IMG/VR virus record: IMGVR_UViG_3300028888_000057
Length of the DNA stretch: 64,000 bases
Reading direction: 5' to 3' (one strand)
Source: a virus
Taxonomy: Duplodnaviria; Caudoviricetes
In this document: positions 8,069 through 56,280 of the stretch, piece by piece
How the letters are laid out: every line of letters begins with the position of its first letter
Numbering within the stretch: the first letter of the stretch is position 1
The notes under the pieces: generated by a model
The model's database searches: none
What the model was told of the DNA's origin: nothing
What the model saw: only the letters and a program-made list of their open reading frames with translations
Made by a program: the position numbers and the translations under genes

Positions 8069-8103
8069 CGACTTCTCCATGTTGCATGTTCGATTGCGTT
8101 GCT

Positions 8104-8145
8104 TCGGTACCTAACTTTGAAGCCATGGAAGTGTGACATAAAGGA
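8104..8145 (+). promoter_or_regulatory. repeated motif copy 1 (GGTACC palindrome + GAAGCCATG-N9/10-CATAAAGG)
   Basis: Same motif recurs at 8764-8809, 32759-32785 and 32799-32844. Confidence 0.5.
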
Positions 8146-8323
8146 GAGAGACTAAAAGTTTTTTCTTTTTTTCTTTCCAGAATATTTTATTTCTTCGTAT
8201 CTTACGAGAGATTTTTAATCACGAAGGCGTGTCTTGATGAGGGGATGACTATTTGTCCATCTGAAAACGACAGCGGCCTATTTGATTATTTTTTCTCGGT
8301 AAATACGTTGAAAGAAGGAAAGG

Positions 8324-8593: not shown

Positions 8594-8763
8594 CGAGAGA
8601 TTTTTAGTCAAATTCGTTTTGTTTGTGGCAGGATGAGAATTTCTCCACCTAAATATTCAAACAAGCTAATTGGTTTCAATTTCATCGTATATTACGAGGG
8701 TTCTGAACAAACGTGACTGAATATTACTCTGCAGATTGCAGAATGACTGTCGTATGGCAAATT

Positions 8764-8809
8764 AGTTCGGTACCGAAATTTGAAGCCATGCGAAACGAGC
8801 CATAAAGGA
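8764..8809 (+). promoter_or_regulatory. repeated motif copy 2, upstream of tRNA cluster
   Basis: AGTTCGGTACCGAA..GAAGCCATG-N10-CATAAAGGA. Confidence 0.5.
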
Positions 8810-9025
8810 AGAGGATGTATGAAAGGTGGGTTCGCTCCCCGCTGATCCTTCTTCCAGGCTGTCGGTGTGCGCTATACGCTTAATCGCAAACCAGCCTTTT
8901 GCGGCCGACAGTAATTTAATAAACAGGCTGCTTATCCCGTACCGATGCAAAGAAGAAGAGCAGCCGCTTACCCGATGCTTATACAGAATGATATTAGCTA
9001 ACTGGGTATAGTGTCGGGTTTGTAT

Positions 9026-12110: not shown

Positions 12111-12650
12111 TATCTATATAATATATATTATTATAATAATAAGAAATAATATTATTAATAATCTATAATAATAAATAATCTGAATAAATATAATTAAATA
12201 AATTAAGATTATTATTCTTATTAATGAATATTATTACTCTTATAGATTATACATTATTTAGATATTACTCTCTTAAGATAATTATATTCCTTTAAATTAA
12301 TTATATTATCTTTAAGATGTATCTCTTTAAGATTATTAATATCTCTTAGAGATTATACTTTCTTTAGAGATTATTATCTTAAGGATAAATGAATCCTTTA
12401 TAGGGATTATTCTTATTTAGAGATAGATACTATTAGAAGAGAATAATTCTTTAGATTAAAACTACACATCTTTTTACTAATTCTTAATATATTTTTACTA
12501 CACACATATTCTTTAGATATTATACACATTACTATTTATATTAATAATACTAACCATATTAATAACAATATCTCTAAAAGATAATATAATCCTTTATTAA
12601 TATAATATAAAGAATAATATTTATAATATAAAGATAAATACTACACTTTG
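12111..12650. other. second extremely AT-rich non-coding tract
   Basis: No ORF; begins with an imperfect inverted copy of 10682-10727. Confidence 0.45.
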
Positions 12651-27523: not shown

Positions 27524-28135
27524 ATGGTTAAGGTTACTGTTATTACTGCTGGAGGACGGAAGACTGACAATTTTGATGAGGCGATGACTCCGAAGGAAAT
27601 TTTGGAAGCGCTGGACGTGGATTATTCTGCGGCTACGAACTCTCTGGATGGCGCTCGTCTGGACACTCGGGGCATGAACACTTCGCTGCGTGAACTTGGC
27701 GTTGGTGAGACCGCTCGTATGACTTCCATTGTGAAGATCGACAATGCGGCTAACATCACGCTGGCTGGTTCTGCGGCCGTGGTGACCTCCGCCGTTTCTC
27801 TGGAAGATCTGAAGCGTGTGGAGAAGTTTGCTCCCGAAGCGCTGAAGATCGTGGACGAGGATGGAGAGACCGTATTCAAGGTCTGCACTCGGGAGAACTC
27901 TGCTGGTTCTATCAACAAGTACGGCGTTGTCTTCGGTTCTGTTGTGAATCATGAAGGCAAGGCGACCGTTACCGTCGTGATCGATCCTGATATCGAGGAC
28001 AAGCGGGAAGCGGTGAAGGACATGATGGGTGCTGCCATTCTGGACCTGAACTCGATCGAGAAGGAACTGCCTGAAGTCCTGAAGGATATCGCAGAAAAGG
28101 AGAAGGAGATCGAAGGCTGCATCGAGCAGAAGTGA
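27524..28135 (+). CDS. ubiquitin-like (beta-grasp) domain plus C-terminal extension
   Basis: MVKVTV..TPKEILE..LDG..L..SLRELGV..IVKIDNA; located upstream of E2-like, JAB and E1 genes. Confidence 0.65.
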   Translation: MVKVTVITAGGRKTDNFDEAMTPKEILEALDVDYSAATNSLDGARLDTRGMNTSLRELGVGETARMTSIVKIDNAANITLAGSAAVVTSAVSLEDLKRVEKFAPEALKIVDEDGETVFKVCTRENSAGSINKYGVVFGSVVNHEGKATVTVVIDPDIEDKREAVKDMMGAAILDLNSIEKELPEVLKDIAEKEKEIEGCIEQK

Positions 28136-28143
28136 TCTTCTTT

Positions 28144-28179
28144 GGAGGGCGGCTTGCGATAGTCGCCCTCCTTTTTTTT
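28144..28179 (+). terminator. intrinsic terminator/attenuator after the Ubl gene
   Basis: GGAGGGCGGCT/AGTCGCCCTCC stem followed by T-tract. Confidence 0.75.
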
Positions 28180-28205: not shown

Positions 28206-29627
28206 ATGTTTAGAAATAACGTTGAAGTATTTGACCCCATCCCAAAGGAATATCTTGATCAGTTCAAGAGACCGCTTAATTCGTTTGACTATGCGTTGGA
28301 TGTTCTTGGCCTTGCACTGCTGAAGCCAAGGATTGAAAATTATAATGGTATTGAAGGTGTCTTCTGTAGTTATGAATCTCTGCAGACAGCCGTTGAAGAT
28401 TGCAAACCTGAACTCAGAACGCAAAATCCACAGTTCTACTTTATAACATTCGAAAACAATAGCGAAGATGTTGATTTCTCCGCTTTCAAAGACTTCACTC
28501 GTTTCACAAGGTTTGAAGAATATCTTAAGAAGAATGCTGACCGCAACGCAGTAATCTTCTATCATGAAACTGAAAACATTGTTTATATCTTTATTGACAG
28601 CAGGCAGCTGAACATTTATCATCTATGTCTGTTCATGCTGTCCAAGTATTATCCGGCTCTGTTTAAAGCACATCCGTTAACTGAGAAGGAACTGATTCTG
28701 ACCAAGACGTTATCAAAAACGGATCGTGAGGCATTCCAGAATGAAATCATGAACAACCTTGGCGATCTGACTGAAGTGTTCAAGAAGATCCGAATCGCTT
28801 CTTTGATTCGTCAGTTCCACCAGAACAAGATCGATGTCGCAAAGAAGGATCTGGCACAGATCGAATCTATGCTTCGCGATGTTATGGAACAGTACGCAAA
28901 TTACTCCAAACAGCGGAAAGAAAAACTTGTGTGGCTGACAGGACTGAATGAAACGGAAAACGAAACTGAGGAAGAAAAGGAAATCGTTGAGTATCTGTCG
29001 ACCAACAGCAAGATTCACGACGTTAAGATTCAGGACGGGCGGATCAAGTTCAGCGTTGCAACAGAAATGATGCAGTATAATCCTGATGCATATGAAATCT
29101 ATGCAAAGAAAGGATATATCTTTGATGGCCACTATAACGAGTGGTGGGCAGACATGTCTACTTTGACAGGAGTGTTCGCAGAACGTGACAACAGAAAACT
29201 TCTGCTTGATCATATCTTCAATGAAGATCCTGATTATCGTATCAAGCTGTGTGGTAACTACGATCTGGATATGAACGATAATGAAGTCAGAACCAATTCG
29301 GATTATCGATACGTTGGATCTGCATTTGAAGACTGTTTGCCGAATCCGCATCTGAGAATTCATCGTTGCCTGGGTGGATATGAAGAAAAGATCATGAATG
29401 CTCTGTACAACAACGAACTGATGAGCGCACTGGAACTGTGCGTATATAGTGCTGGATCTGTCGATCTGGACGAAACTGAACAGACCTTCCGGCCACTGAT
29501 TGGCTGGCTTTGTACTACTCAGAAGAAATGCCTGTTGGATCGAGACGGAAACAGTTTAACGCCGGAAGAAGCGATTGTTCAGATCAAAGACAAGGAGAAA
29601 GAAAATGAAGCCGATTGTGCTGACTGA
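28206..29627 (+). CDS. coiled-coil protein with putative prokaryotic E2-like C-terminal domain
   Basis: PNPHLRIHRCLGGY resembles the E2 active-site His..Cys region; operon context. Confidence 0.55.
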   Translation: MFRNNVEVFDPIPKEYLDQFKRPLNSFDYALDVLGLALLKPRIENYNGIEGVFCSYESLQTAVEDCKPELRTQNPQFYFITFENNSEDVDFSAFKDFTRFTRFEEYLKKNADRNAVIFYHETENIVYIFIDSRQLNIYHLCLFMLSKYYPALFKAHPLTEKELILTKTLSKTDREAFQNEIMNNLGDLTEVFKKIRIASLIRQFHQNKIDVAKKDLAQIESMLRDVMEQYANYSKQRKEKLVWLTGLNETENETEEEKEIVEYLSTNSKIHDVKIQDGRIKFSVATEMMQYNPDAYEIYAKKGYIFDGHYNEWWADMSTLTGVFAERDNRKLLLDHIFNEDPDYRIKLCGNYDLDMNDNEVRTNSDYRYVGSAFEDCLPNPHLRIHRCLGGYEEKIMNALYNNELMSALELCVYSAGSVDLDETEQTFRPLIGWLCTTQKKCLLDRDGNSLTPEEAIVQIKDKEKENEADCAD

Positions 29628-30444
29628 TAAAGCAAAAGAAGTAATGATGAAGCACTTCATGGAGAAATTCAACAAAGCTCTCGATGAATATGCGTTCAAT
29701 ATTGACAAGAAAAAGTTTTCCTTTGAAGCTGAGATAAATCAAGTTGCCAAAGAAAAGGTTCATATTGTTTATAGCCCGACAGCATATCTGAGAATGCTGA
29801 AGCTTGTTAATTATTATGAGTCTGAAGTAACTTGGTATGGTTTGGTTAAGAGGCTCGACGAAAAGACGTATCATGTCTATGATGTGATCGTTTGTCCGCA
29901 GTACGTATCTGGTGCCAAAGTCGATACGGATGATGATGAAACGATGGAGTTCTTCGGTAATCTGACGGATGAGCAGGCTGAAAATATGTATTATCAGGCG
30001 CATAGTCATGTGAACTTCTCGACCGAAGCTTCTGGTGTTGACTTGCAGAATCAGATTGATATTCTGGGTAATATGCTGAATAAAGATGGATTCTTCCTGT
30101 TCCAGATTTGGAACAAGAAAGGAGAAGTCAGCACTTATCTGTATGATCTCGGAGCCAACATCTTCTACGATTCCAAAGATGTAGTCATGGAGATCGAAGA
30201 TCCGGATTATGAATCTCTGGATGCGTTTGTCGAAGCCAATAAATCCTTGGTGAAAAAAAGAGAAGTAAAACCAGTCGCAAACATCGGAAGAAACGATGGA
30301 TGGTACGGTGATTGGCCGAAAGGCGCAGCCGGATACGGATCTGGTTACGGTTCCGGTTATTATGGTGGATACAACAGAAATGATGATGCATATTATGTAA
30401 ATGGATACAATTATCAGAATGGGAGGTTCTTTGACGAAGAATGA
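29605..30444 (+). CDS. JAB/JAMM metallopeptidase
   Basis: ESEVTWYG..HSHVNFSTEASGVD (E..HxH..S..D); Gly/Tyr-rich tail. Confidence 0.8.
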   Translation: MKPIVLTDKAKEVMMKHFMEKFNKALDEYAFNIDKKKFSFEAEINQVAKEKVHIVYSPTAYLRMLKLVNYYESEVTWYGLVKRLDEKTYHVYDVIVCPQYVSGAKVDTDDDETMEFFGNLTDEQAENMYYQAHSHVNFSTEASGVDLQNQIDILGNMLNKDGFFLFQIWNKKGEVSTYLYDLGANIFYDSKDVVMEIEDPDYESLDAFVEANKSLVKKREVKPVANIGRNDGWYGDWPKGAAGYGSGYGSGYYGGYNRNDDAYYVNGYNYQNGRFFDEE

Positions 30445-31127
30445 ACTTAGCAAAGAGTTTTGAATTCTTTAATCCTGAAAAGGTAAAGGATCGTATTCAT
30501 ATTATCGGATGTGGTTCTGTCGGATCAACGGTTGCAGAACTGTTAATTCGGGATGGTCTGAAGAACTTCAGCCTGTACGATTTTGATACAGTAGAAGAAC
30601 ATAATCTTGTAAACCAGATGTTCACCGGGGACGATCTGTATAAGCCTAAAGCACACTGTGTAAAGAATCGGATGATCCATGTGGTTCCTGAGTCTGATCG
30701 AAAAGAACTCAGCGAAACGATCAAGGTGTATGATAAAGGCTGGACGGGTCAGAGGCTGTCTGGTTACATTTTCCTCTGTGTGGATAATATCGAACTTCGA
30801 AAGAAGATCGTGGAAGACAACATGTATAATAACTCTGTCAAAGCGATGTTTGATTTCAGAACGGCACTGACAAGTGGTCAGCACTATGCAGCTGACTGGT
30901 CTGACGCAAAACAGATTGCAGATTTGTTGGACACAATGGATTTTACACATGCAGAGGCTGAAAAGAACACACCGCTGTCTGCCTGTAAGGTATCGATGTG
31001 TGTCGCTCCGACGGTCTGGGCTGTAGCGATGGCCGGGGTTGTAAACTTTATGAACTTTGTAAAGGACGGAATCATTCGGAATCAAGTTATTGTAAACCCG
31101 TTTGATTTCAATATCATTGAACTTTAA
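30441..31127 (+). CDS. ThiF/E1-like adenylyltransferase
   Basis: IHIIGCGSVGS..LYDFDTVEEHNLVNQ..K..LCVDN..R; candidate catalytic Cys in SAC. Confidence 0.9.
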   Translation: MNLAKSFEFFNPEKVKDRIHIIGCGSVGSTVAELLIRDGLKNFSLYDFDTVEEHNLVNQMFTGDDLYKPKAHCVKNRMIHVVPESDRKELSETIKVYDKGWTGQRLSGYIFLCVDNIELRKKIVEDNMYNNSVKAMFDFRTALTSGQHYAADWSDAKQIADLLDTMDFTHAEAEKNTPLSACKVSMCVAPTVWAVAMAGVVNFMNFVKDGIIRNQVIVNPFDFNIIEL

Positions 31128-31131
31128 TGAA

Positions 31132-31412
31132 TTATCATAATGAAAACGTAGAAATACTCTTTAGATGTTATTTAAAGGAACGATTGGCTGGATGAGTAGG
31201 TCGCTGCGGGCAGGTCCTGAAGGCGCCCAGTGGAGTGTCGATCCGCTGGCAGAGAGGCTGGACGGAGGTGGCAGGTCAGCGCGATCCGACTGAAAACCGG
31301 GAAAGTGGAGATTCAAATCCGGAGAAGACGACCAATTGGATCTCGAACGCGTCCAGCGGGCCCTGGAGGAGCACCTCGTGCGGCAGCGGATTTTCCTTTT
31401 AGATTATGATAA
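31132..31412 (+). ncRNA. retron-like (msr-msd-like) ncRNA
   Basis: Terminal inverted repeat TTATCATAAT/ATTATGATAA plus four nested stems; GC-rich island directly upstream of the RT. Confidence 0.6.
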
Positions 31413-31422
31413 GGATAATAAT

Positions 31423-32547
31423 ATGATTTACATAACAAGAAAAAGAATTGCAATACCCAAACAAGTGACTTTGGAAGACATCTTGTTGGACCGAGAAATT
31501 CCGGAGTTAAAAGATATAGGAACAAGCACACTGACAAGAGTTTATCCTGAAACTCCAGATGAGCTTAAACATTGTTTCAATATTGATTTATTAATCAAAT
31601 GGTTGAATGACTTCAATGAACGACATGCTGAGCTATTCCAAAGAGATAGAAACAGTATGTATTATCAGTTCAAAATACCAAAGAAAACAGGAGGATTCAG
31701 AGAAATTGATGCTCCTGTCAAAGAGTTGCAGAGCGCGCTAACAGAAGTGGTTAATTTTCTAAAGAATCAATGCAATATTCTGTATCATACGGCGGCATTT
31801 GCCTATATCGAAGAGAGAAGCACGGTAGATTGTGTCAGAAGACATCAGAAAAACAATAGCAATTGGTTCCTGAAACTGGATATTAAGAGCTTCTTTCCAA
31901 GCACTACGCTGAAGTATCTGATGCACATCAGCAGCATGACGTATCCACTGTCGGAAATCTGCAAGGTTCCAGAGGGAAAGTCAGCGTTGGAGAGGACATT
32001 CAGTCTTGCTTTTAAAGATGGCAAATTGCCACAGGGAACAACATTAAGTCCGTTGATTTCGAACATTGTAATGTTGCCAATAGACTTTAAGGTCTTCAAT
32101 ACATTGGCAGCAAGAAAGATTGTATATACTCGTTACTGCGATGATATGATTATCTCGGCTCAGGAGAAGTTTCCGTGGCAGGAAGTTGTAAAGATTGTCA
32201 AAGATGCTTTTACAGAAATGGGAGCACCATATCGGATCAATGACGAAAAGACAAGGTTTGGATCAAAGAAAGGAAGTAACTTTAATCTCGGATTAATGCT
32301 GAATGGAAACAATGATATCACTGTAGGTTATAAGGCGAAGAAACGCTATAAAGCTGCGCTGTGTTCATTTATCCAGGATACAATCCATGGAAATCGTTGG
32401 CCGCTGGAAGATGTAACGCATCTGAACGGGCTGACAAGTTACTATCGCTATCTGGAGAAAGAATATTTTGATCAGATATGGAAAAGAGCAAGCGAAAAGT
32501 GGAACGTAGATATTGGTGCTTTGTTTAAATCATATCTATCAACGTAA
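31423..32547 (+). CDS. reverse transcriptase, retron-like
   Basis: IPKKTGGFREIDAP, AFAY..CVRRH, KLDIKSFFPS, LPQG..LSPLISN, YTRYCDD; AAGGA RBS before ATG 31423. Confidence 0.92.
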   Translation: MIYITRKRIAIPKQVTLEDILLDREIPELKDIGTSTLTRVYPETPDELKHCFNIDLLIKWLNDFNERHAELFQRDRNSMYYQFKIPKKTGGFREIDAPVKELQSALTEVVNFLKNQCNILYHTAAFAYIEERSTVDCVRRHQKNNSNWFLKLDIKSFFPSTTLKYLMHISSMTYPLSEICKVPEGKSALERTFSLAFKDGKLPQGTTLSPLISNIVMLPIDFKVFNTLAARKIVYTRYCDDMIISAQEKFPWQEVVKIVKDAFTEMGAPYRINDEKTRFGSKKGSNFNLGLMLNGNNDITVGYKAKKRYKAALCSFIQDTIHGNRWPLEDVTHLNGLTSYYRYLEKEYFDQIWKRASEKWNVDIGALFKSYLST

Positions 32548-32691
32548 ACAATGAAGAGGCAGTTACATGCACTTTTGATGTGATTAGAAGAGAAGAAATG
32601 GTATTTAGTCTGATGATACTATCGGTATTTTCAGGGATAAATTCCTGAAAATACAGCTATTATCATAACTAAAGTTTAGATTGTTTACTTT

Positions 32692-32726
32692 TAGTGCGGA
32701 TGCCTCGGGTGTCCGCACTATTTTTT
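32692..32726 (+). terminator. intrinsic terminator ending the Ubl-RT unit
   Basis: TAGTGCGGAT/GTCCGCACTA stem followed by T6. Confidence 0.8.
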
Positions 32727-32758
32727 CATGTTATGCAATTATATTTGATAAAATCTTT

Positions 32759-32844
32759 GAAGCCATGCGAAACGAGCCTTAAAGGTAAAACACAAAATAG
32801 TTAGGTACCGAACTATGAAGCCATGCGGAACACAACATAAAGGA
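32759..32844 (+). promoter_or_regulatory. tandem copies 3 and 4 of the GAAGCCATG..TAAAGG motif upstream of RNAP 2
   Basis: Two direct copies with the AGTTAGGTACCGAACT palindrome between them. Confidence 0.55.
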
Positions 32845-32906
32845 AGAGAAAATTATTCCGTATCGGAATTCACATAAATAAAAGATGATGGAAGGGGGCT
32901 CAACAT

Positions 32907-34475
32907 GTGTCTTCGGTGAAGACATACCTGCAAGATCAGGTAAGGTTGGTAACGCTGAGCAGTAACGATTTATTTACAGATGATGAATATAGTCAATATG
33001 TAAAGATCGTGCAGCTAGGCAACACGTACAACGAAAGGATCGGAAAAGGAGAAGACAAGGATACTCTGAAGCCAATTCTCCGGGAAAAAGAAAAGCTCAA
33101 AGAAAAATTGTCAACAACTATTCAGAAAAGAGGGGAGAATCCTCGGGTTGTTAATCTGAACATGGTTGTTCATCATTCCAAAGACTCTCCATTTCCATTT
33201 CCGAAAGGTATTACGTGGAAAAATCTCAAAATCACACGCAGGATTGCAGAATTTTCATGTGAACTGACAAGAGCAATGGGTCTCAATAATCTGGACTGTA
33301 CGCTTGATCTGATCGTGATTAAATGGAAAGACTTGAATCTTCTGAAGCAGCTGGTACTGTATGGATTCTATATGCCGATTCTCCATGGAGACGAAGTTGA
33401 AATGAGACACTATCAGTTTCTGACTGCATCAGCCGGACAGTTGAGACGCGACAAAACAATCTTCATTTCGGATGAGATGTGGAACAAGATTCACAGACGC
33501 ATCGAGTGTGGAATGAACTGGGAAAGAATCAATGTTCATGGAGGTATCGTCGCAAATAAACTGCTGGCTTATATTGCGTTGGCTAACAGTGCTACGGATG
33601 TCTGGACGGACTTTGATATTGACCGGTGTATTGTCATAGACGATTTCGAGGCTGAAGTAACTGATCGAATGATGTATATTAAGGAAGATTATACATATGA
33701 GATCGGTAAACGAACGGTAATGATCAACCACACTGATGGATGTGGAATGATGCTGCCAACAGTCTCGAAACTGAATTTTATGACAAGACTGCCATTCATC
33801 AAAGGATTGCTTGTGAGCTTTGATTATATTAAATTCTGCAAAGTCAATAATGTTCCTCCGATTATCAAGGATATTTATGGCAAAGAACATGACCTGATTA
33901 AAGAAAATATACAGATAATCTTTACGAAGAGTATGTTCAAAGCCTATAAGTATTTTGAAAGCTTCGAAGAGTACAAAGCAGAATTTAAAGCATGTGGCGC
34001 ACAGGCCGGAATTACCAATTATGAAGAAGAGTATATTCCGGATGCGACATTGAATTATCAATTCATTCAAACACTAGTAAATTTTACTGATGAGGAGATA
34101 CAACAATTCATCAAAAATGATCATGATAAGATTGAAAAGCTTGGAACCAACAAAGATTCAATGTTGAACACGTTGGGAGCCAGAAAGGAATCTGACAATC
34201 CTTATAAAGCGGCGCTGGCATACTATCCGGAACTGTTGAGAGAAGCGTATAGCAAAGAAACGATTCGAGCGATCAGGAAGAGTATGATGCTGGATGCAAA
34301 GTCTGGAAAGATTCACTGCGAAAACAAGAGATTGTTTGCAGTACCTGATCTCTACGCCGCCTGTGAGCGGTGGTTTATGGGGATCGAAGAACCAGAAGGA
34401 TTGTTAAGGGGAAATGAAATAGCTTGTCTGCCGTATAGAAGGCATGATAAAGCAGATGTTCTAAGAAGTCCGCAT
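32907..34475 (+). CDS. YonO-like single-subunit RNA polymerase (copy 2), exon 1
   Basis: TASAGQLR, HTDGCGM, RLPFIKG, LNYQFIQTL; ends ..LRSPH at the intron. Confidence 0.85.
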
Positions 34476-35512
34476 TAACATAGGTGCCTTTACACAGTAA
34501 TGTGTATCGAAAAATGTGGTTAACCTGTAAATACAGGGTGTCGCTGAAAAGCGGCTAACGGAGAACGAACTAAACGATAGAGTTTGGAGGTGAGAAAATG
34601 AGCAAGCTTAAAGATTTAACTGGACGGATGTTTGGATTTCTTTACGTTCAAAGAAGAATGCCTAATTATGTTCAAGAAAACGGAAGAACAAGAACGAGAT
34701 GGCTAACAACGTGTCTCTTGTGTGGAAAAGCTTATGTTGCAGATGGTAGTCATTTGCTGCACGGTGATATTATTAGTTGTGGCTGTTTTAAGAACATGAA
34801 AAGCGCATTAAGAGGTCAAGAATATACAGGCGTCCAGAAACCAATTCGAGATTTGACCGGCATGAAATTTGGATATCTTAGAGTAATTGAAAGATGCGAA
34901 AATTTTGGGCCAAAAACAGCATGGTTATGTTTGTGTGAGAATTGTGGCAGTTATACAAAGGTTCGCTCGAATCATCTCCTTCGAGGATTAGTATCCAGTG
35001 ATGGCTGTATAAAGTCTGTAAGAGAAGAGCAAATGGCAAAATGGTTTAATGAACACAAAATTCCATTTGAAAGAGAATATACTTTTCCAGACTTATTAGG
35101 CGAAGGTGGAAGTAATCTAAGATTCGATTTTGGTTTAATAGACAAGAAAAATAATTTAATTTGTTTAGTTGAATATCAAGGAGAACAACATGGTTTAGAT
35201 AAAACTGGAGAGTTTGGCAGACAACAAAGAGAACAAACTGACAAACAAAAAATTGATTATTGTTTAATAAACCATCTTGCTTTTCAAAGTGTTTGGTACA
35301 ATAGAGATTTTGAAGAGCAAATGCAAGAAATCGAAAAGTTCTATCGCAAGTCAACTGCCGTGCCAAACCGGAAAACCGGAAGGTGTATCGACTATCCCGA
35401 GAGGGAGTAGGGTTCAAGTGAAACTCTTGAATTCGAAACGCCACACAACCCGTAAGGGCTGATGACATAGTCAACTCCGCTACGAAATATCGGGAAACCG
35501 ACGGTACGAAGG
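34476..35512 (+). mobile_element. group I intron in RNAP 2
   Basis: Exon ends in U with P1 GCAT/GTGC (U.G); P7 elements CGACTA..CATAGTC; terminal G at 35512; splicing restores RSPH-LA-MEH in frame. Confidence 0.85.
34598..35410 (+). CDS. intron-encoded homing endonuclease (DLTG..FG.L.V Zn repeats plus a PD-(D/E)xK/Vsr-like nuclease domain)
   Basis: Two DLTGxxFGxLxV..CxxCG repeats; LRFDF..VEYQGEQH. Confidence 0.75.
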   Translation: MSKLKDLTGRMFGFLYVQRRMPNYVQENGRTRTRWLTTCLLCGKAYVADGSHLLHGDIISCGCFKNMKSALRGQEYTGVQKPIRDLTGMKFGYLRVIERCENFGPKTAWLCLCENCGSYTKVRSNHLLRGLVSSDGCIKSVREEQMAKWFNEHKIPFEREYTFPDLLGEGGSNLRFDFGLIDKKNNLICLVEYQGEQHGLDKTGEFGRQQREQTDKQKIDYCLINHLAFQSVWYNRDFEEQMQEIEKFYRKSTAVPNRKTGRCIDYPERE

Positions 35513-36760
35513 TTAGCAATGGAACATTTTATCTGCCCAATTGTTCATGATCAGAAAATATATGATTGGTTTTATACAAACGGAGTCGTAACTTCTTGTC
35601 ACAGCATGGTATCGAGGGTGCTCCAGTTCGATGTCGATGGAGATCAACTTAACGTAATTGTTGATCCGTTATTCATTAAGGTTGCTGAAAAGAATATCAA
35701 AGAGTTTGACGTGGTTCCATTATTCTATGACGCAGAGAAAGGTGATGCTACTCTGATGTCAAAGGAGGCACAGTTTGAAGGTCTGAAGATTGCCCATGAA
35801 TATTCAGGTATCGGAGAAATATCAAACATGCTGACAAGACTATGGAATCGAAATACTCAGGACAGGATTGCTGCCGCATTTCTTTGCAGATTTAACAACG
35901 CTGTGATCGATGCAGCAAAGATTGCCAAGATCAATCACTATAATCAGTATCCTGAAATTGAAAAACGTATCAACAAAGCTATAGGAGGCAAGAACTCACG
36001 TATGCCTGCTTGGTTCAAGTACTCTAAGAATCAGAGGAAAAATGGCAATGAACACAAGCAGTATGCAAAACCCAATAACTCAACAATGAACCGAATATCT
36101 TCTTACTTTGATGATATTGGAAAGATCAACATGAATTTTGCTGGGGTGCCGTCATTCAACTGGCAAATGCTTCTCAGCGGGCCGTGTACAAATACATGGC
36201 CGGAAATTCCAATGCTGTTCTGTGAGATGGATAATGTTAATATTTCTAACGTAATCGAATCTCATGACATTCCTTATGCATCTGAGAAACAGAAGATCAA
36301 TGGTTATTCCATGATGGCAGAAATGATCAAGGATGAAATCATTGATCAGTTTGGTTCGTTAGAAACTGCATATCCGTATGTAGTAAAACATCTGTTTGCA
36401 GGAGAAGGTATGAATAAAGCCGCTCACAAACAGATGTTCTGGCGCGTGTTTGGCAATATTGCGCTGGAAAACTTAAAGAAAAATGTTAACAACTGTGATG
36501 TTTGTCCGGATTGTAAGATGAGAATCCCATCGTGGGTGAAGGATCATTATTGTGTGAAGAATACATCCGGCTTCTATGAATGTATAGATTGCCATAAGAT
36601 GTGTGAAAGAACTTCTTCATCGCAATATCGATGCGCAGATTGTCAAAATAAATATCGACTAACACAAAGAAAACTGGCTCAGAGAAACCGTCGAAACCAA
36701 TTGAAAGAGGATGAAGAGAAACGTATTGTTTCCTGGCTATCGTCCTTCAGGGAGATATAA
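35513..36760 (+). CDS. YonO-like RNA polymerase, exon 2
   Basis: LQFDVDGDQ catalytic loop, N..IDAAK, C-terminal Zn ribbons. Confidence 0.85.
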   Translation, partial: LAMEHFICPIVHDQKIYDWFYTNGVVTSCHSMVSRVLQFDVDGDQLNVIVDPLFIKVAEKNIKEFDVVPLFYDAEKGDATLMSKEAQFEGLKIAHEYSGIGEISNMLTRLWNRNTQDRIAAAFLCRFNNAVIDAAKIAKINHYNQYPEIEKRINKAIGGKNSRMPAWFKYSKNQRKNGNEHKQYAKPNNSTMNRISSYFDDIGKINMNFAGVPSFNWQMLLSGPCTNTWPEIPMLFCEMDNVNISNVIESHDIPYASEKQKINGYSMMAEMIKDEIIDQFGSLETAYPYVVKHLFAGEGMNKAAHKQMFWRVFGNIALENLKKNVNNCDVCPDCKMRIPSWVKDHYCVKNTSGFYECIDCHKMCERTSSSQYRCADCQNKYRLTQRKLAQRNRRNQLKEDEEKRIVSWLSSFREI

Positions 36761-38113: not shown

Positions 38114-38494
38114 ATGGCAAATGATGCAAAAGTATGTATTGTTGGAAATCTGATCAAGGATCCTATGCAGAACAATTATAACAACTCAACTGTTGTCTCT
38201 TTCATCGTGGCCGTTAAGACCACCAAAAAGGATGCGGAGAATAAACCTGTTTCTGACCTGTACAGCGTAAGCGTATGGGGAAAGTTCGGAGAAGTTCTTT
38301 ATCCCATGATGCAAAAGGGAACGATGGTTCAGGTAGTTGGCGACCTGATCCTTCAGGAATATACCGATAAAAAGACCGGAGAAAAGAGAGAAGGTCTCGC
38401 AGTGCGAGCTTCTGACGTAAAACTGCTGGCAAAATTAAAGAGCGCCCCGAAGAATAATAATGATGATGATTATTCTGGGCCAGACCCATTCTAA
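38114..38494 (+). CDS. ssb: single-stranded DNA-binding protein
   Basis: VGNLIKDP..F.VAV..SVWGK..KG..V.V.G.L; DDDYSGPDPF tail. Confidence 0.85.
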   Translation: MANDAKVCIVGNLIKDPMQNNYNNSTVVSFIVAVKTTKKDAENKPVSDLYSVSVWGKFGEVLYPMMQKGTMVQVVGDLILQEYTDKKTGEKREGLAVRASDVKLLAKLKSAPKNNNDDDYSGPDPF

Positions 38495-38687
38495 TAAGTA
38501 AATAATAATCTGCAATGAGCTACCGAGTGAGAACTTGGTTCTGTTGATGTAATTAGCAGATTCGAAAAGGTAAATAATCGAGTTTCCTGGCTGCCAAACT
38601 AGGGCAGCCAGGAAACTCATAACAAAATAAATCTTAAGATTGCAGAAAAATATAAAAAAAGGGAAAAAGAAAGGAACAGAAAATATT

Positions 38688-56011: not shown

Positions 56012-56280
56012 GTCAATTACCCACGACTAAAGTCGCGGGCTTGTGGAAATGAGCCTGGAGTTGACTAGCCTAAGGTTTTCGGAACCTACGTTGAGAGAGT
56101 CAGAACACCCATGGACGTATCACCTAATCTGTGGCTCTGTTGATCTTCATTAAAAGTTCTGCTGGGTAGAAACGGTGTGACGGTCACGACAAGCTCTTTC
56201 AACATTGGCGAAGGTGACATAACGGCTTCATACGCGCCGGTTTACAGCTTAAAGCGTATAAGTATTAAAGAAAGGACGTG
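56012..56280 (+). ncRNA. omegaRNA scaffold of IscB
   Basis: GTCAAT..GTTGAC closing stem, CTACGTT and CATTGGCGAAGG motifs upstream of iscB. Confidence 0.75.

What the first reader, a model, noticed from the sequence alone, without database searches (positions are those of the whole stretch)
31132..31412. Nested long-range RNA fold upstream of the RT (candidate template RNA)
Seen: five mutually nested complementary pairs: 31132-41/31403-12 (10 bp, a1/a2-like), 31174-80/31393-99, 31241-48/31384-91, 31257-64/31350-57 and 31283-87/31338-42. They lie in a GC- and purine-rich island unlike the flanking genes, and the 3' arm abuts the RT RBS. The RT has CVRRH where retrons have NAxxH, and NLG where they usually have VTG. 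Inference: an msr-msd-like RNA of a divergent RT clade, possibly also regulating RT translation.
Basis: partly seen in the sequence, partly recalled or inferred. Interest (0 to 1): 0.7.

Follow-up and report, generated by a model that had tools for sequence, protein, structure and literature searches.

The report
Retron template RNAs in a gut phage
The gap upstream of this sheep-gut phage's reverse transcriptase holds a retron-type template RNA that is conserved in hundreds of related ~150-kb phages, occurs in several copies per genome and sits behind a ubiquitin-like conjugation operon, which would make this an undescribed, virus-borne form of retron.

Summary
All the complementary runs exist. 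Only the outer 10-bp pair (31132-41/31403-12) is conserved. In about 100 homologous units from over 50 phage contigs, an inverted repeat of varying sequence brackets the RNA. An invariant G follows its 5' arm and AG usually precedes its 3' arm.

The GC-rich interior folds no better than shuffled sequence. Its inner pairs are broken without compensation in a 98%-identical relative. It cannot be aligned between relatives, and in several lineages it diverges faster than synonymous sites.

The RT is retron-clade (closest solved structure Ec83 RT). It carries CVRRH and NLG in place of NAxxH and VTG.

Beyond the finding:
- The window holds two more units, 32544-32688 and 38509-38646.
- Relatives carry up to 8 detected units clustered around the RT.
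- Ubl-like, E2-like, JAMM, E1, RNA and RT genes stay together down to 35% RT identity.
- One metatranscriptome holds a contig at 31175-31393 with about 12-fold the depth of the RT contigs.

No paper in the library describes this. Verdict: a new variant of retron. cDNA synthesis and function are untested.

The parts
31132..31141 (+). a1, the 5' arm of the terminal inverted repeat of unit A (TTATCATAAT)
   Evidence: It is the exact 10-bp complement of 31403-31412. The homologous arms differ in sequence but stay complementary in about 100 units: Watson-Crick stem median about 9 against 4-5 in controls.
31142..31142 (+). Candidate branching (priming) G directly after a1
   Evidence: It is invariant in alignment A2 (36 of 36). 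It was confirmed in 103 of the 105 CM-aligned units; the other two matches are cut off 5' of it. Its role as the 2'-OH primer is inferred from retron biology.
31148..31157 (+). msr hairpin P1 (3 bp with a GAAA loop in this window; 5-8 bp in relatives)
   Evidence: Helix 1 covaries across the family, with all 6 pairs showing double changes. It is weak in the window, where the CM leaves it unpaired.
31159..31177 (+). msr hairpin P2 (8 bp, loop GTT)
   Evidence: Its three inner pairs are unbroken in nearly every sequence while changing sequence, for example GC 65, AU 18, GU 11 and UA 7. The window pairs at all 8 positions.
31178..31187 (+). Linker motif GAACGATTGG (family consensus GTAACAAnTTG)
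   Evidence: It is a conserved sequence block after P2 in A2 and A3.
31188..31397 (+). Long interior, the predicted msd template. It is GC-rich in this lineage.
   Evidence: It lies between the conserved msr and TTTAG-a2. It folds no better than shuffles (z +0.2) and cannot be aligned among relatives at about 50% RT identity. It differs from L164 at 20 of 192 positions plus 2 indels, while the msr has 1 difference in 72 and a2 none in 15. An RNA-library contig covers 31175-31393 at depth 47.
31398..31402 (+). TTTAG just 5' of a2, the predicted start of reverse transcription
   Evidence: AG, mostly as TAG, directly precedes a2 in most units. The roughly 20 nt before a2 are invariant among close relatives.
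31403..31412 (+). a2, the 3' arm (ATTATGATAA)
   Evidence: See a1. Across 19 close pairs there is 1 substitution in 276 nt of TAG plus a2.
31423..32547 (+). Reverse transcriptase, 374 aa, YCDD active site, ribosome-binding site AAGGA at 31411-31415
   Evidence: Pfam RVT_1 7e-22. PADLOC RT_II-A 8e-52. NCBIfam retron St85 186 bits, below the cut-off of 235. PDB Ec83 RT 6e-24.
32544..32688 (+). Unit B, a short retron-type ncRNA that overlaps the RT stop codon. a1 is 32544-52, G is 32553, P2 is 32572-90, the msd hairpin follows, then TTTAG and a2 at 32680-88.
   Evidence: It has an exact 9-bp a1/a2 and a fold z of -3.6. Its msd z is -5.8. It is 145 of 145 identical in L164, where the RT gene is 95.4% identical. 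Short units with covarying a1/a2 follow the RT in 8 close relatives. The CM matches only P2.
32692..32720 (+). Intrinsic terminator closing the operon
   Evidence: A 13-bp stem followed by TTTTTT.
38509..38646 (+). Unit C, a third retron-type ncRNA between an upstream ORF (38114-38494) and the next gene downstream. a1 is 38509-16, G is 38517, P1 is 38522-39, P2 is 38541-59, the 16-bp msd hairpin is 38580-38618, and a2 is 38639-46.
   Evidence: The CM, which was not trained on it, scores it at 28.3 bits with E 1.4e-5 and 32.5 bits. Its a1/a2 is 8 bp and its msd z is -7.9. L165 has a unit at the matching position, between an SSB gene and a Toprim/DnaB gene.
30441..31127 (+). ThiF/E1-like adenylating enzyme. 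Its stop codon lies 5 nt before a1.
   Evidence: Pfam ThiF 1e-20. PADLOC E1-E2. It is found upstream of the RT in 78 of 83 viral loci and in L090 at 35% RT identity.
29575..30444 (+). JAMM/JAB metallopeptidase
   Evidence: Invariant E...HSH-x7-S-xx-D motif. Profile match to Rpn11 at 2.8e-5.
28206..29627 (+). 473-aa protein with a C-terminal RWD/E2-like domain (tentative)
   Evidence: Invariant NPH...C.G. AF2 model at pLDDT 87.5. Residues 253-419 align to RWD domains of Knl1 and Ltn1 at Z 6.5-7.2, which is only middling. Foldseek found nothing.
27524..28135 (+). Candidate ubiquitin-like protein with its own terminator at 28144-28171
   Evidence: Conserved in 20 loci. The alignment supports the start at 27524 and shows a conserved K-x-DN-A motif. 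The beta-grasp fold was not tested.

Best explanation
Interval 31132-31412 is the non-coding RNA of a phage-borne retron (unit A).

It is transcribed with the upstream E2-like, JAMM and E1 genes and the RT, as one operon that ends at the terminator at 32692-32720. The arms a1 and a2 pair. The RT recognises the msr part, which consists of P1, P2 and the GTAAC..TTG linker. The 2'-OH of G31142 would then prime cDNA synthesis on the template, starting at the conserved TTTAG (about 31402) and running leftwards through the interior to about 31180-31190. The product would be a roughly 200-nt, pyrimidine-rich single-stranded DNA joined to the msr RNA.

The same RT probably also serves the short units B (32544-32688) and C (38509-38646), whose templates are stable hairpins.

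Shown here: the RNA architecture, its conservation and covariation, the RT's clade, the synteny, and a locally abundant nucleic-acid species in one RNA library. Inferred: priming at the G, the extent of the cDNA, use of several units by one RT, and any biological role.

The role I think most likely is that the RT-RNA-DNA complexes act together with, or regulate, the adjacent ubiquitin-like conjugation enzymes, or serve as DNA decoys against host defences. This is a guess, with roughly 35% for each alternative.
For: - The RT is retron-clade in three libraries.
- a1/a2 is an exact 10 bp. When anchored on the CM-defined G, 103 units show complementary arms with a median of about 9 Watson-Crick pairs, against 4-5 at random positions. 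The arms have dozens of different sequences, and AG precedes a2 in most.
- The G is invariant.
- For P1 and P2 on the untuned MAFFT alignment, 76% of cells pair against 55% in shuffles, covariation is 0.60 against 0.24 (0 of 500 shuffles reach it), and the slid registers are all lower. The same holds for 105 CM-aligned units.
- The CM finds unit A at E 2e-8 and the untrained unit C at E 1e-5.
- All 110 CM matches up to E 0.05 lie on the RT strand and cluster around the RT.
- In L164, a2 and unit B are identical to the window and the msr has a single difference in 72 nt, while the RT gene differs at 4.6% of bases.
- In metatranscriptome run X5, a 219-nt contig at 31175-31393 has depth 47. The RT contigs have depth 2.8-3.9, and there is no cover over the E1 gene. 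Its ends lie within about 10-15 nt of the predicted template.
Against: - No cDNA has been observed. The RNA-library signal is one contig in one run, so it cannot give strand, ends or molecule type.
- The RT lacks both motifs used to define retron RTs (NAxxH and VTG).
- The long interior is not a stable hairpin, unlike classical msd regions (median z -0.57 over 90 units).
- No Rfam family matches, at either the gathering or the E<=10 threshold.
- P1 is only 3 bp in this window.
- Unit B is not recognised by the CM as a whole.
- No recognised retron effector (ATPase, NDT, Toprim, TIR and so on) is adjacent.
Confidence: 0.8

Rival explanations
1. The interval is a structured 5' leader or attenuator that controls transcription or translation of the RT, not a template.
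For: The 3' end of a2 overlaps the ribosome-binding site in this window: TAAGGA at 31410-15, with the ATG at 31423.
Against: The same architecture recurs downstream of the RT and 6 kb away (units B and C), and up to 8 units were detected around the RT in a relative. In most relatives a2 ends 12-30 nt before the start codon, upstream of the ribosome-binding site. An invariant G after a covarying terminal stem is not explained by a leader.
Confidence: 0.04
2. The interior is a diversity-generating-retroelement-like template or variable repeat. Its cDNA would rewrite a target gene.
For: The interior is the fastest-changing stretch of the locus in several lineages. In L035/L036 it differs at 16.5% against 0.7% at 4-fold sites. 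Some columns show all four bases among near-identical phages.
Against: No second copy of the interior exists in the 64-kb window; matches are at most 13 nt. The changes are not centred on adenines and show no strand asymmetry. The RT is not DGR-clade. The rest of the genome could not be searched.
Confidence: 0.04
3. The units are repeated intergenic elements, either miniature mobile elements or binding sites for another protein, that merely neighbour the RT.
For: There are several diverged copies per genome, each bounded by inverted repeats.
Against: Copies are confined to a few kb around the RT in complete 150-kb genomes. All lie on the RT strand. Orthologous copies keep their positions. No target-site duplications or identical copies were seen. 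The architecture (stem, G, two hairpins, template, AG, stem) is that of retron RNAs.
Confidence: 0.05
4. It is the RNA partner of a defence-type (DRT/UG-like) RT that makes repetitive or concatemeric cDNA by rolling-circle synthesis.
For: There are weak RT matches to Drt2 and Drt3a.
Against: Drt2 scores 52 bits against a cut-off of 390 and Drt3a 39 against 200, whereas retron models score 107-186 bits. No internal repeat or template-jump homology was found in the interior.
Confidence: 0.03

Closest known systems
Bacterial retrons of types I-A and II-A (Ec83/Ec78, St85/Ec86)
   Same: The RT clade is the same: best PDB match is the Ec83 RT at 6e-24, and the best family models are St85 and RT_II-A. 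The ncRNA lies directly upstream of the RT, is bounded by an a1/a2 repeat, and has a G after a1 and msr hairpins. Units B and C also have a hairpin-shaped msd.
   Different: - NAxxH and VTG are replaced by CxxxH and xLG, and the score is below the St85 cut-off.
- It is carried by ~150-kb phages with direct terminal repeats, as a conserved module.
- One RT goes with 1-8 detected units.
- The main unit has a roughly 200-nt unstructured, fast-changing template.
- The neighbours are ubiquitin-like conjugation genes rather than ATPase/HNH or NDT effectors.
Viral retron-like RT clades reported from metagenomes (PMC13681634)
   Same: That paper reports viral RT clusters that share ancestry with bacterial retron RTs, mostly from digestive-tract viromes.
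   Different: It describes RT proteins only. It gives no ncRNA, no multi-unit layout and no gene context. I could not check whether this family is one of its clusters.
Engineered retron arrays ('multitrons', bioRxiv 10.1101/2023.07.17.549397)
   Same: Several msr-msd units are served by one RT.
   Different: Those arrays are laboratory constructs. Here the arrays are natural, diverged and conserved between phages.
Bacterial ubiquitin-like conjugation (Bil-type) operons
   Same: An E1-like adenylating enzyme and a JAMM peptidase, with a probable E2-like protein and a small candidate Ubl, lie in one co-oriented block.
   Different: The operon is phage-encoded and runs directly into a retron. The E2 and Ubl assignments are tentative. 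Whether the two modules work together is unknown.
Diversity-generating retroelements
   Same: A phage RT sits next to a non-coding template, and the locus shows localised hypervariability.
   Different: The RT clade differs, there is no template/variable repeat pair, there is no adenine bias, and the variable tract is the non-coding template itself.

Membership tests
Retron (RT plus msr-msd ncRNA) | RT belongs to the retron clade of prokaryotic RTs | tested here: met
   The top matches are all retron RTs. PADLOC RT_II-A scores 174 bits and RT_I-A 147 bits. NCBIfam retron St85 scores 186 bits. In the PDB, the Ec83, Ec78, St85, Ec67 and Ec86 RTs match.
Retron (RT plus msr-msd ncRNA) | Region X motif NAxxH | tested here: not met
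   CVRRH aligns to NAKIH of the Ec83 RT. The family consensus is DCxxKH, with only the H invariant.
Retron (RT plus msr-msd ncRNA) | Region Y motif VTG | tested here: not met
   NLG aligns to VTG. L and G are invariant in the family.
Retron (RT plus msr-msd ncRNA) | ncRNA bounded by inverted repeats a1/a2 next to the RT | tested here: met
   The window has an exact 10 bp. The arms covary in about 100 units, and the anchored test against random positions is clear.
Retron (RT plus msr-msd ncRNA) | Conserved guanosine at the 3' end of a1 (branch point) | tested here: met
   It is invariant in A2 and was confirmed in 103 of the 105 rows of A3; the other two matches are cut off 5' of it. Only the position is shown, not the chemistry.
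Retron (RT plus msr-msd ncRNA) | msr stem-loops conserved in structure | tested here: met
   76-80% of cells pair against 55-56% in shuffles, and 0 of 500 shuffles reach the covariation score.
Retron (RT plus msr-msd ncRNA) | msd forms a stable stem-loop | tested here: not met
   Unit A's interior has z +0.2, and the median over 90 units is -0.57. Units B and C do meet the feature, at z -5.8 and -7.9.
Retron (RT plus msr-msd ncRNA) | Production of msDNA joined to RNA by a 2'-5' bond | not testable with these tools
   The only hint is a contig at 31175-31393 with depth 47 in an RNA library.
Retron (RT plus msr-msd ncRNA) | Associated effector gene or genes | tested here: inconclusive
   The E1, JAMM and E2-like genes are always adjacent. 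This may be phage synteny alone, and no known retron effector family was matched.
NCBIfam NF038233, retron St85 family RT | Score at or above the curated cut-off (235 bits) | tested here: not met
   186.1 bits.
Diversity-generating retroelement | Template repeat with a near-identical variable repeat in a target gene | tested here: not met
   The interior has no second copy in the window. The rest of the genome was not available.
DRT2 (UG2) defence RT with rolling-circle ncRNA | RT reaches the Drt2 family cut-off | tested here: not met
   51.7 bits against 390.
Bil-type ubiquitin-like conjugation operon | E1-like adenylating enzyme and JAMM peptidase | tested here: met
   Pfam ThiF at 1e-20. 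Complete JAMM motif and an Rpn11 match at 2.8e-5.
Bil-type ubiquitin-like conjugation operon | E2 enzyme and ubiquitin-like protein | tested here: inconclusive
   There is an RWD-like fold at Z about 7 and an invariant NPH..C motif. The Ubl fold was not modelled.

The most novel reading that the evidence does not exclude
This would be a natural 'multitron'. One phage RT would serve 2-8 template RNAs whose long templates turn over faster than synonymous sites, so that the phage population carries an ever-changing library of single-stranded DNAs. The system would work with the adjacent phage-encoded ubiquitin-like conjugation machinery as its effector. That would make it a new retron type used by a virus rather than against one.
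Probability: 0.2. Interest if true: 0.9.

Novelty: new variant of a known kind. Interest (0 to 1): 0.74.

Why it matters
Retrons are known as bacterial anti-phage systems and as genome-editing tools. This case differs in four ways:
- The retron-type RT and its RNAs are a conserved module of a large family of ~150-kb gut and rumen phages, with more than 550 IMG/VR contigs.
- One RT goes with several templates.
- The main template is about 200 nt long and shows little sign of sequence or folding constraint.
- The operon partner is a ubiquitin-like conjugation system.

If the cDNA is made, three things follow. It would show what a virus uses a retron for. It would widen the definition of retron RTs, since NAxxH and VTG would not be required. 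It would also offer a natural multi-template RT that copies templates longer than classical retron msDNAs, which is of practical interest for retron editors.

Tried and rejected
- **Rfam:** nothing in the gap at either the gathering or the E<=10 threshold.
- **Close DNA relatives:** none in the phage record collection. The metagenome scan gave no relative closer than 44%. Only one near relative, L164, was found through the protein index.
- **Whole genome:** not held, so a genome-wide search for units or for targets of the interiors was impossible.
- **Target-like copies:** the three interiors have no copy in the window beyond 10-13 nt chance matches. This includes the 10-nt identity between unit B's hairpin and a1 of unit A (E 2.9), which I dismissed.
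- **Weaker CM matches:** those at 12603, 60507, 41959, 58838 and elsewhere have no a2 partner and were rejected.
- **Coding potential of the interior:** rejected. There are single-base indels between close relatives and no clear 3-nt periodicity in the substitutions (the periodicity was counted by hand).
- **RT-error feedback as the cause of hypervariability:** no strand asymmetry was found in 221 polarised changes, and part of the excess may be short-patch recombination in mosaic phages. This is left open.
- **u473:** a Foldseek search of the whole model found nothing, and its sequence profile against the PDB found nothing meaningful.
- **Laid runs:** all were contigs, so no read ends, strand or within-sample variation could be read. 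In RNA run X5, parts of the stretch have no cover.
- **Literature:** searches for retrons together with ThiF, JAB, ubiquitin or phage-encoded retrons found no description of this system.

Full report
**Setting**

The window looks like part of a large phage. It carries a tail-fibre gene, tRNA clusters, an RdRP-like RNA polymerase gene interrupted by an endonuclease ORF, and a HEARO RNA. Public runs that hold the stretch are sheep, goat and other gut metagenomes.

The finding lies in the 295-nt gap between a ThiF/E1-like gene (30441-31127) and a 374-aa reverse transcriptase (31423-32547).

**Observation**

The GC island is real.

Exact runs of 8 bp or more are commoner than in dinucleotide shuffles: 3 against a mean of 0.43, P=0.003. 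For the interior alone the figures are 2 against 0.33, P=0.04.

The predicted folding energy is ordinary for this composition. It gives z -1.24 for the whole gap and z +0.2 for the interior. The sequence on its own therefore does not establish a nested fold.

**Comparative evidence**

The RT has many relatives at 40-55% identity, most on contigs of about 100-150 kb. More than 550 IMG/VR contigs encode one. Complete examples are 148-151 kb with direct terminal repeats.

In almost every locus an inverted repeat brackets 250-380 nt upstream of the RT. The repeat differs in sequence from locus to locus. A G follows its 5' arm, and TAG or another NAG usually precedes its 3' arm.

An alignment of the 5' parts (A2) shows the following:
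- an invariant G;
- a hairpin P1 of variable sequence;
- a hairpin P2 whose inner pairs change sequence without breaking;
- a linker motif, GTAACAAnTTG.

On this untuned alignment 76% of cells pair, against 55% in shuffles. The covariation score is 0.60 against 0.24, reached by 0 of 500 shuffles. All slid registers score lower.

A covariance model built from A2 finds 110 matches up to E 0.05 in 50 loci, all on the RT strand. A second search that included the window kept 105 matches up to E 0.01 as alignment A3. The pair counts on those 105 aligned units repeat the result.

I then anchored on the model-defined G, so that no stem search could bias the test. The bases 5' of the G have a complement 140-440 nt downstream. 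The median is about 9 Watson-Crick pairs, against 4-5 at random positions.

This is the anatomy of a retron msr-msd RNA. In the window it reads:
- a1 31132-41
- G 31142
- P1 31148-57 (only 3 bp here)
- P2 31159-77
- linker 31178-87
- interior 31188-31397
- TTTAG 31398-31402
- a2 31403-12

**The inner pairs**

Pair 2 uses bases of the P2 3' arm.

In L164 the RT is 98% identical in protein and 95.4% in DNA. There, pair 3 loses three of its eight pairs and pair 4 loses one, with no compensating change.

Interiors of relatives at about 50% RT identity cannot be aligned at all. Over 90 units the interiors fold no better than shuffles, with a median z of -0.57.

The 'nested long-range fold' is therefore not supported beyond its outermost helix.

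**The RT**

All best matches are retron RTs:
- PADLOC RT_II-A 8e-52 and RT_I-A 2e-43;
- NCBIfam St85 family at 186 bits, below its 235-bit cut-off;
- PDB Ec83 RT at 6e-24, followed by Ec78, St85-family, Ec67 and Ec86.

The alignment to Ec83 confirms CVRRH in place of NAKIH and NLG in place of VTG. A recent survey uses these two motifs as the marks of retron RTs (PMC13712802). The active site is YCDD; the family consensus is YADD.

**More units than one**

The model, which was not trained on it, finds a second unit at 38508-38588 with E 1e-5. This unit has:
- an 8-bp a1/a2 (38509-16/38639-46);
- good P1 and P2 hairpins;
- a 16-bp template hairpin with z -7.9.

A unit sits at the matching place in L165, between an SSB gene and a Toprim/DnaB gene.

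I confirmed it at 32544-32688:
- a 9-bp a1/a2;
- a G in the context AAT-G-AA;
- a P2-like hairpin with loop GTG;
- a template hairpin with z -5.8;
- TTTAG before a2.

The model recognises only its P2. However, eight close relatives carry a short unit with covarying arms at the same place. In L164 it is identical over all 145 nt.

No other place in the window has the full signature.

Relatives have one to eight detected units, clustered within a few kb of the RT.

**Evolution of the parts**

Among close relatives the msr and the last 20 or so nt before and including a2 hardly change. TAG plus a2 shows 1 change in 276 nt over 19 pairs.

The interior is different. It changes about as fast as the RT's 4-fold degenerate sites, and in several lineages faster:

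| Pair | Interior | RT 4-fold sites |
|---|---|---|
| Window / L164 | 10.4% | 14.4% |
| L025 / L031 | 12.5% | 4.0% |
| L034 / L037 | 5.8% | 1.3% |
| L035 / L036 | 16.5% | 0.7% |

Pooled over pairs whose flanks differ by 3% or less, the interior differs at 4.3%, the flanks at 0.9% and msr plus a2 at 1.1%. The pairs share ancestry, so the nominal P value overstates the case.

Divergence profiles show narrow peaks on the interiors within otherwise identical kilobases. Some columns show all four bases among near-identical phages.

The changes are not adenine-centred and show no strand asymmetry. These phages are also mosaic, so short-patch recombination cannot be told apart from local hypermutation.

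For the window's own unit the one available comparison looks roughly neutral.

**Expression hint**

In one sheep-gut metatranscriptome a 219-nt contig identical to 31175-31393 has depth 47. The contigs over the RT gene have depth 2.8-3.9, and the E1 gene has none. Uniform DNA contamination would not give this pattern.

The contig ends lie within about 10-15 nt of the predicted template. Contigs cannot give strand, true ends or molecule type, and this is one run. I count it as a hint only.

**Context**

The genes upstream are conserved with the RT in 73-78 of 83 viral loci, and in L090 at 35% RT identity. They are:
- a candidate Ubl (27524-28135, fold not tested);
- a 473-aa protein whose C-terminal domain resembles RWD/E2 folds at a middling Z of about 7 and has an invariant NPH..C motif;
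- a JAMM peptidase with the complete motif;
- the E1-like enzyme.

Terminator-like sites at 28144-71 and 32692-720 suggest one transcript running from the E2-like gene through unit B.

Whether the retron and the conjugation genes work together, or merely travel together in a syntenic phage genome, is not settled.

**Mechanism proposed**

The operon transcript folds so that a1/a2 places G31142 next to the template end. The RT, bound to P1, P2 and the linker, primes from the G's 2'-OH at about 31402. It copies the interior to about 31180-31190, giving a roughly 200-nt pyrimidine-rich DNA joined to the msr. Units B and C would give hairpin DNAs of about 60-70 nt.

I put 0.8 on the interval being a retron-type RNA used by this RT. 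I put about 0.65 on a branched msDNA being the product.

The role is open. I lean equally towards two ideas: action with or regulation of the ubiquitin-like conjugation module, or DNA decoys against host defences.

**Novelty**

The paper library holds reports of viral retron-like RT clades (PMC13681634). It holds nothing on their RNAs, on natural multi-unit layouts, or on a link to E1 or JAMM genes.

I class this as a new variant of a known kind. It works like a retron and has a retron-clade RT, but it fails two defining RT motifs and the hairpin-template feature. It also differs in carrier, copy number and neighbours.

Noticed in passing
window 38509-38646: A third retron-type ncRNA (unit C) lies 6 kb downstream of the RT, between ORF 38114-38494 and the next gene downstream. 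L165 has a unit at the matching position, between an SSB gene and a Toprim/DnaB gene.
   Followed up: yes
L051 3511-8782 (IMG/VR record, 77.9-83.2 kb): Eight CM matches lie on one strand around the RT, several of them back to back at spacings of about 300-420 nt. This is a natural array of retron-type RNAs.
   Followed up: partly
L034-L041, L050, L058: 3700-3950, and the L024 group: The unit interiors are the most divergent stretches within otherwise near-identical kilobases. Some columns show all four bases. The cause, hypermutation or patch recombination, is unresolved.
   Followed up: partly
window 32735-32790, 32793-32848, 8095-8150, 8758-8813: A 56-nt element with the core TTTGAAGCCATGCG..A.....TAAAGG occurs in four copies. 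Two of them lie in tandem just after the retron operon's terminator and before the RNA polymerase gene. It may be a phage promoter or regulatory site.
   Followed up: no
window 32907-36760: The two halves of one phrog_8308 protein (RdRP-like, PF05183) are separated by an HNH/homing-endonuclease ORF at 34598-35410. In relatives the two halves are contiguous, which is consistent with an intron carrying an endonuclease.
   Followed up: partly
window 56012-56223: A full-length HEARO RNA (128 bits, E 3e-26), the RNA partner of IscB/HNH-type nucleases, sits in a phage context.
   Followed up: no
window 30967-32798: One DNA contig of another sheep-gut sample joins 30967 to 32798. It skips the end of the E1 gene, unit A, the RT and unit B. 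This may be a relative that lacks or has replaced the retron. Only 35 nt support one side of the joint.
   Followed up: no
86 long unit interiors across 51 sources: The interiors are T-poor (0.19 against 0.26 in the loci) and C-rich (0.28 against 0.20). The strong GC and purine richness seen in this window is not shared by the family; interior GC across units ranges from 0.31 to 0.62.
   Followed up: partly
L166-L212 (genome contigs): All 47 relatives in species-representative genomes lie in gut MAGs of many unrelated taxa: mostly Clostridia, with some Bacteroidota and one labelled archaeon. Most contigs are about 100 kb. These are probably phage contigs binned with bacteria, so the host cannot be read from the labels.
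   Followed up: no
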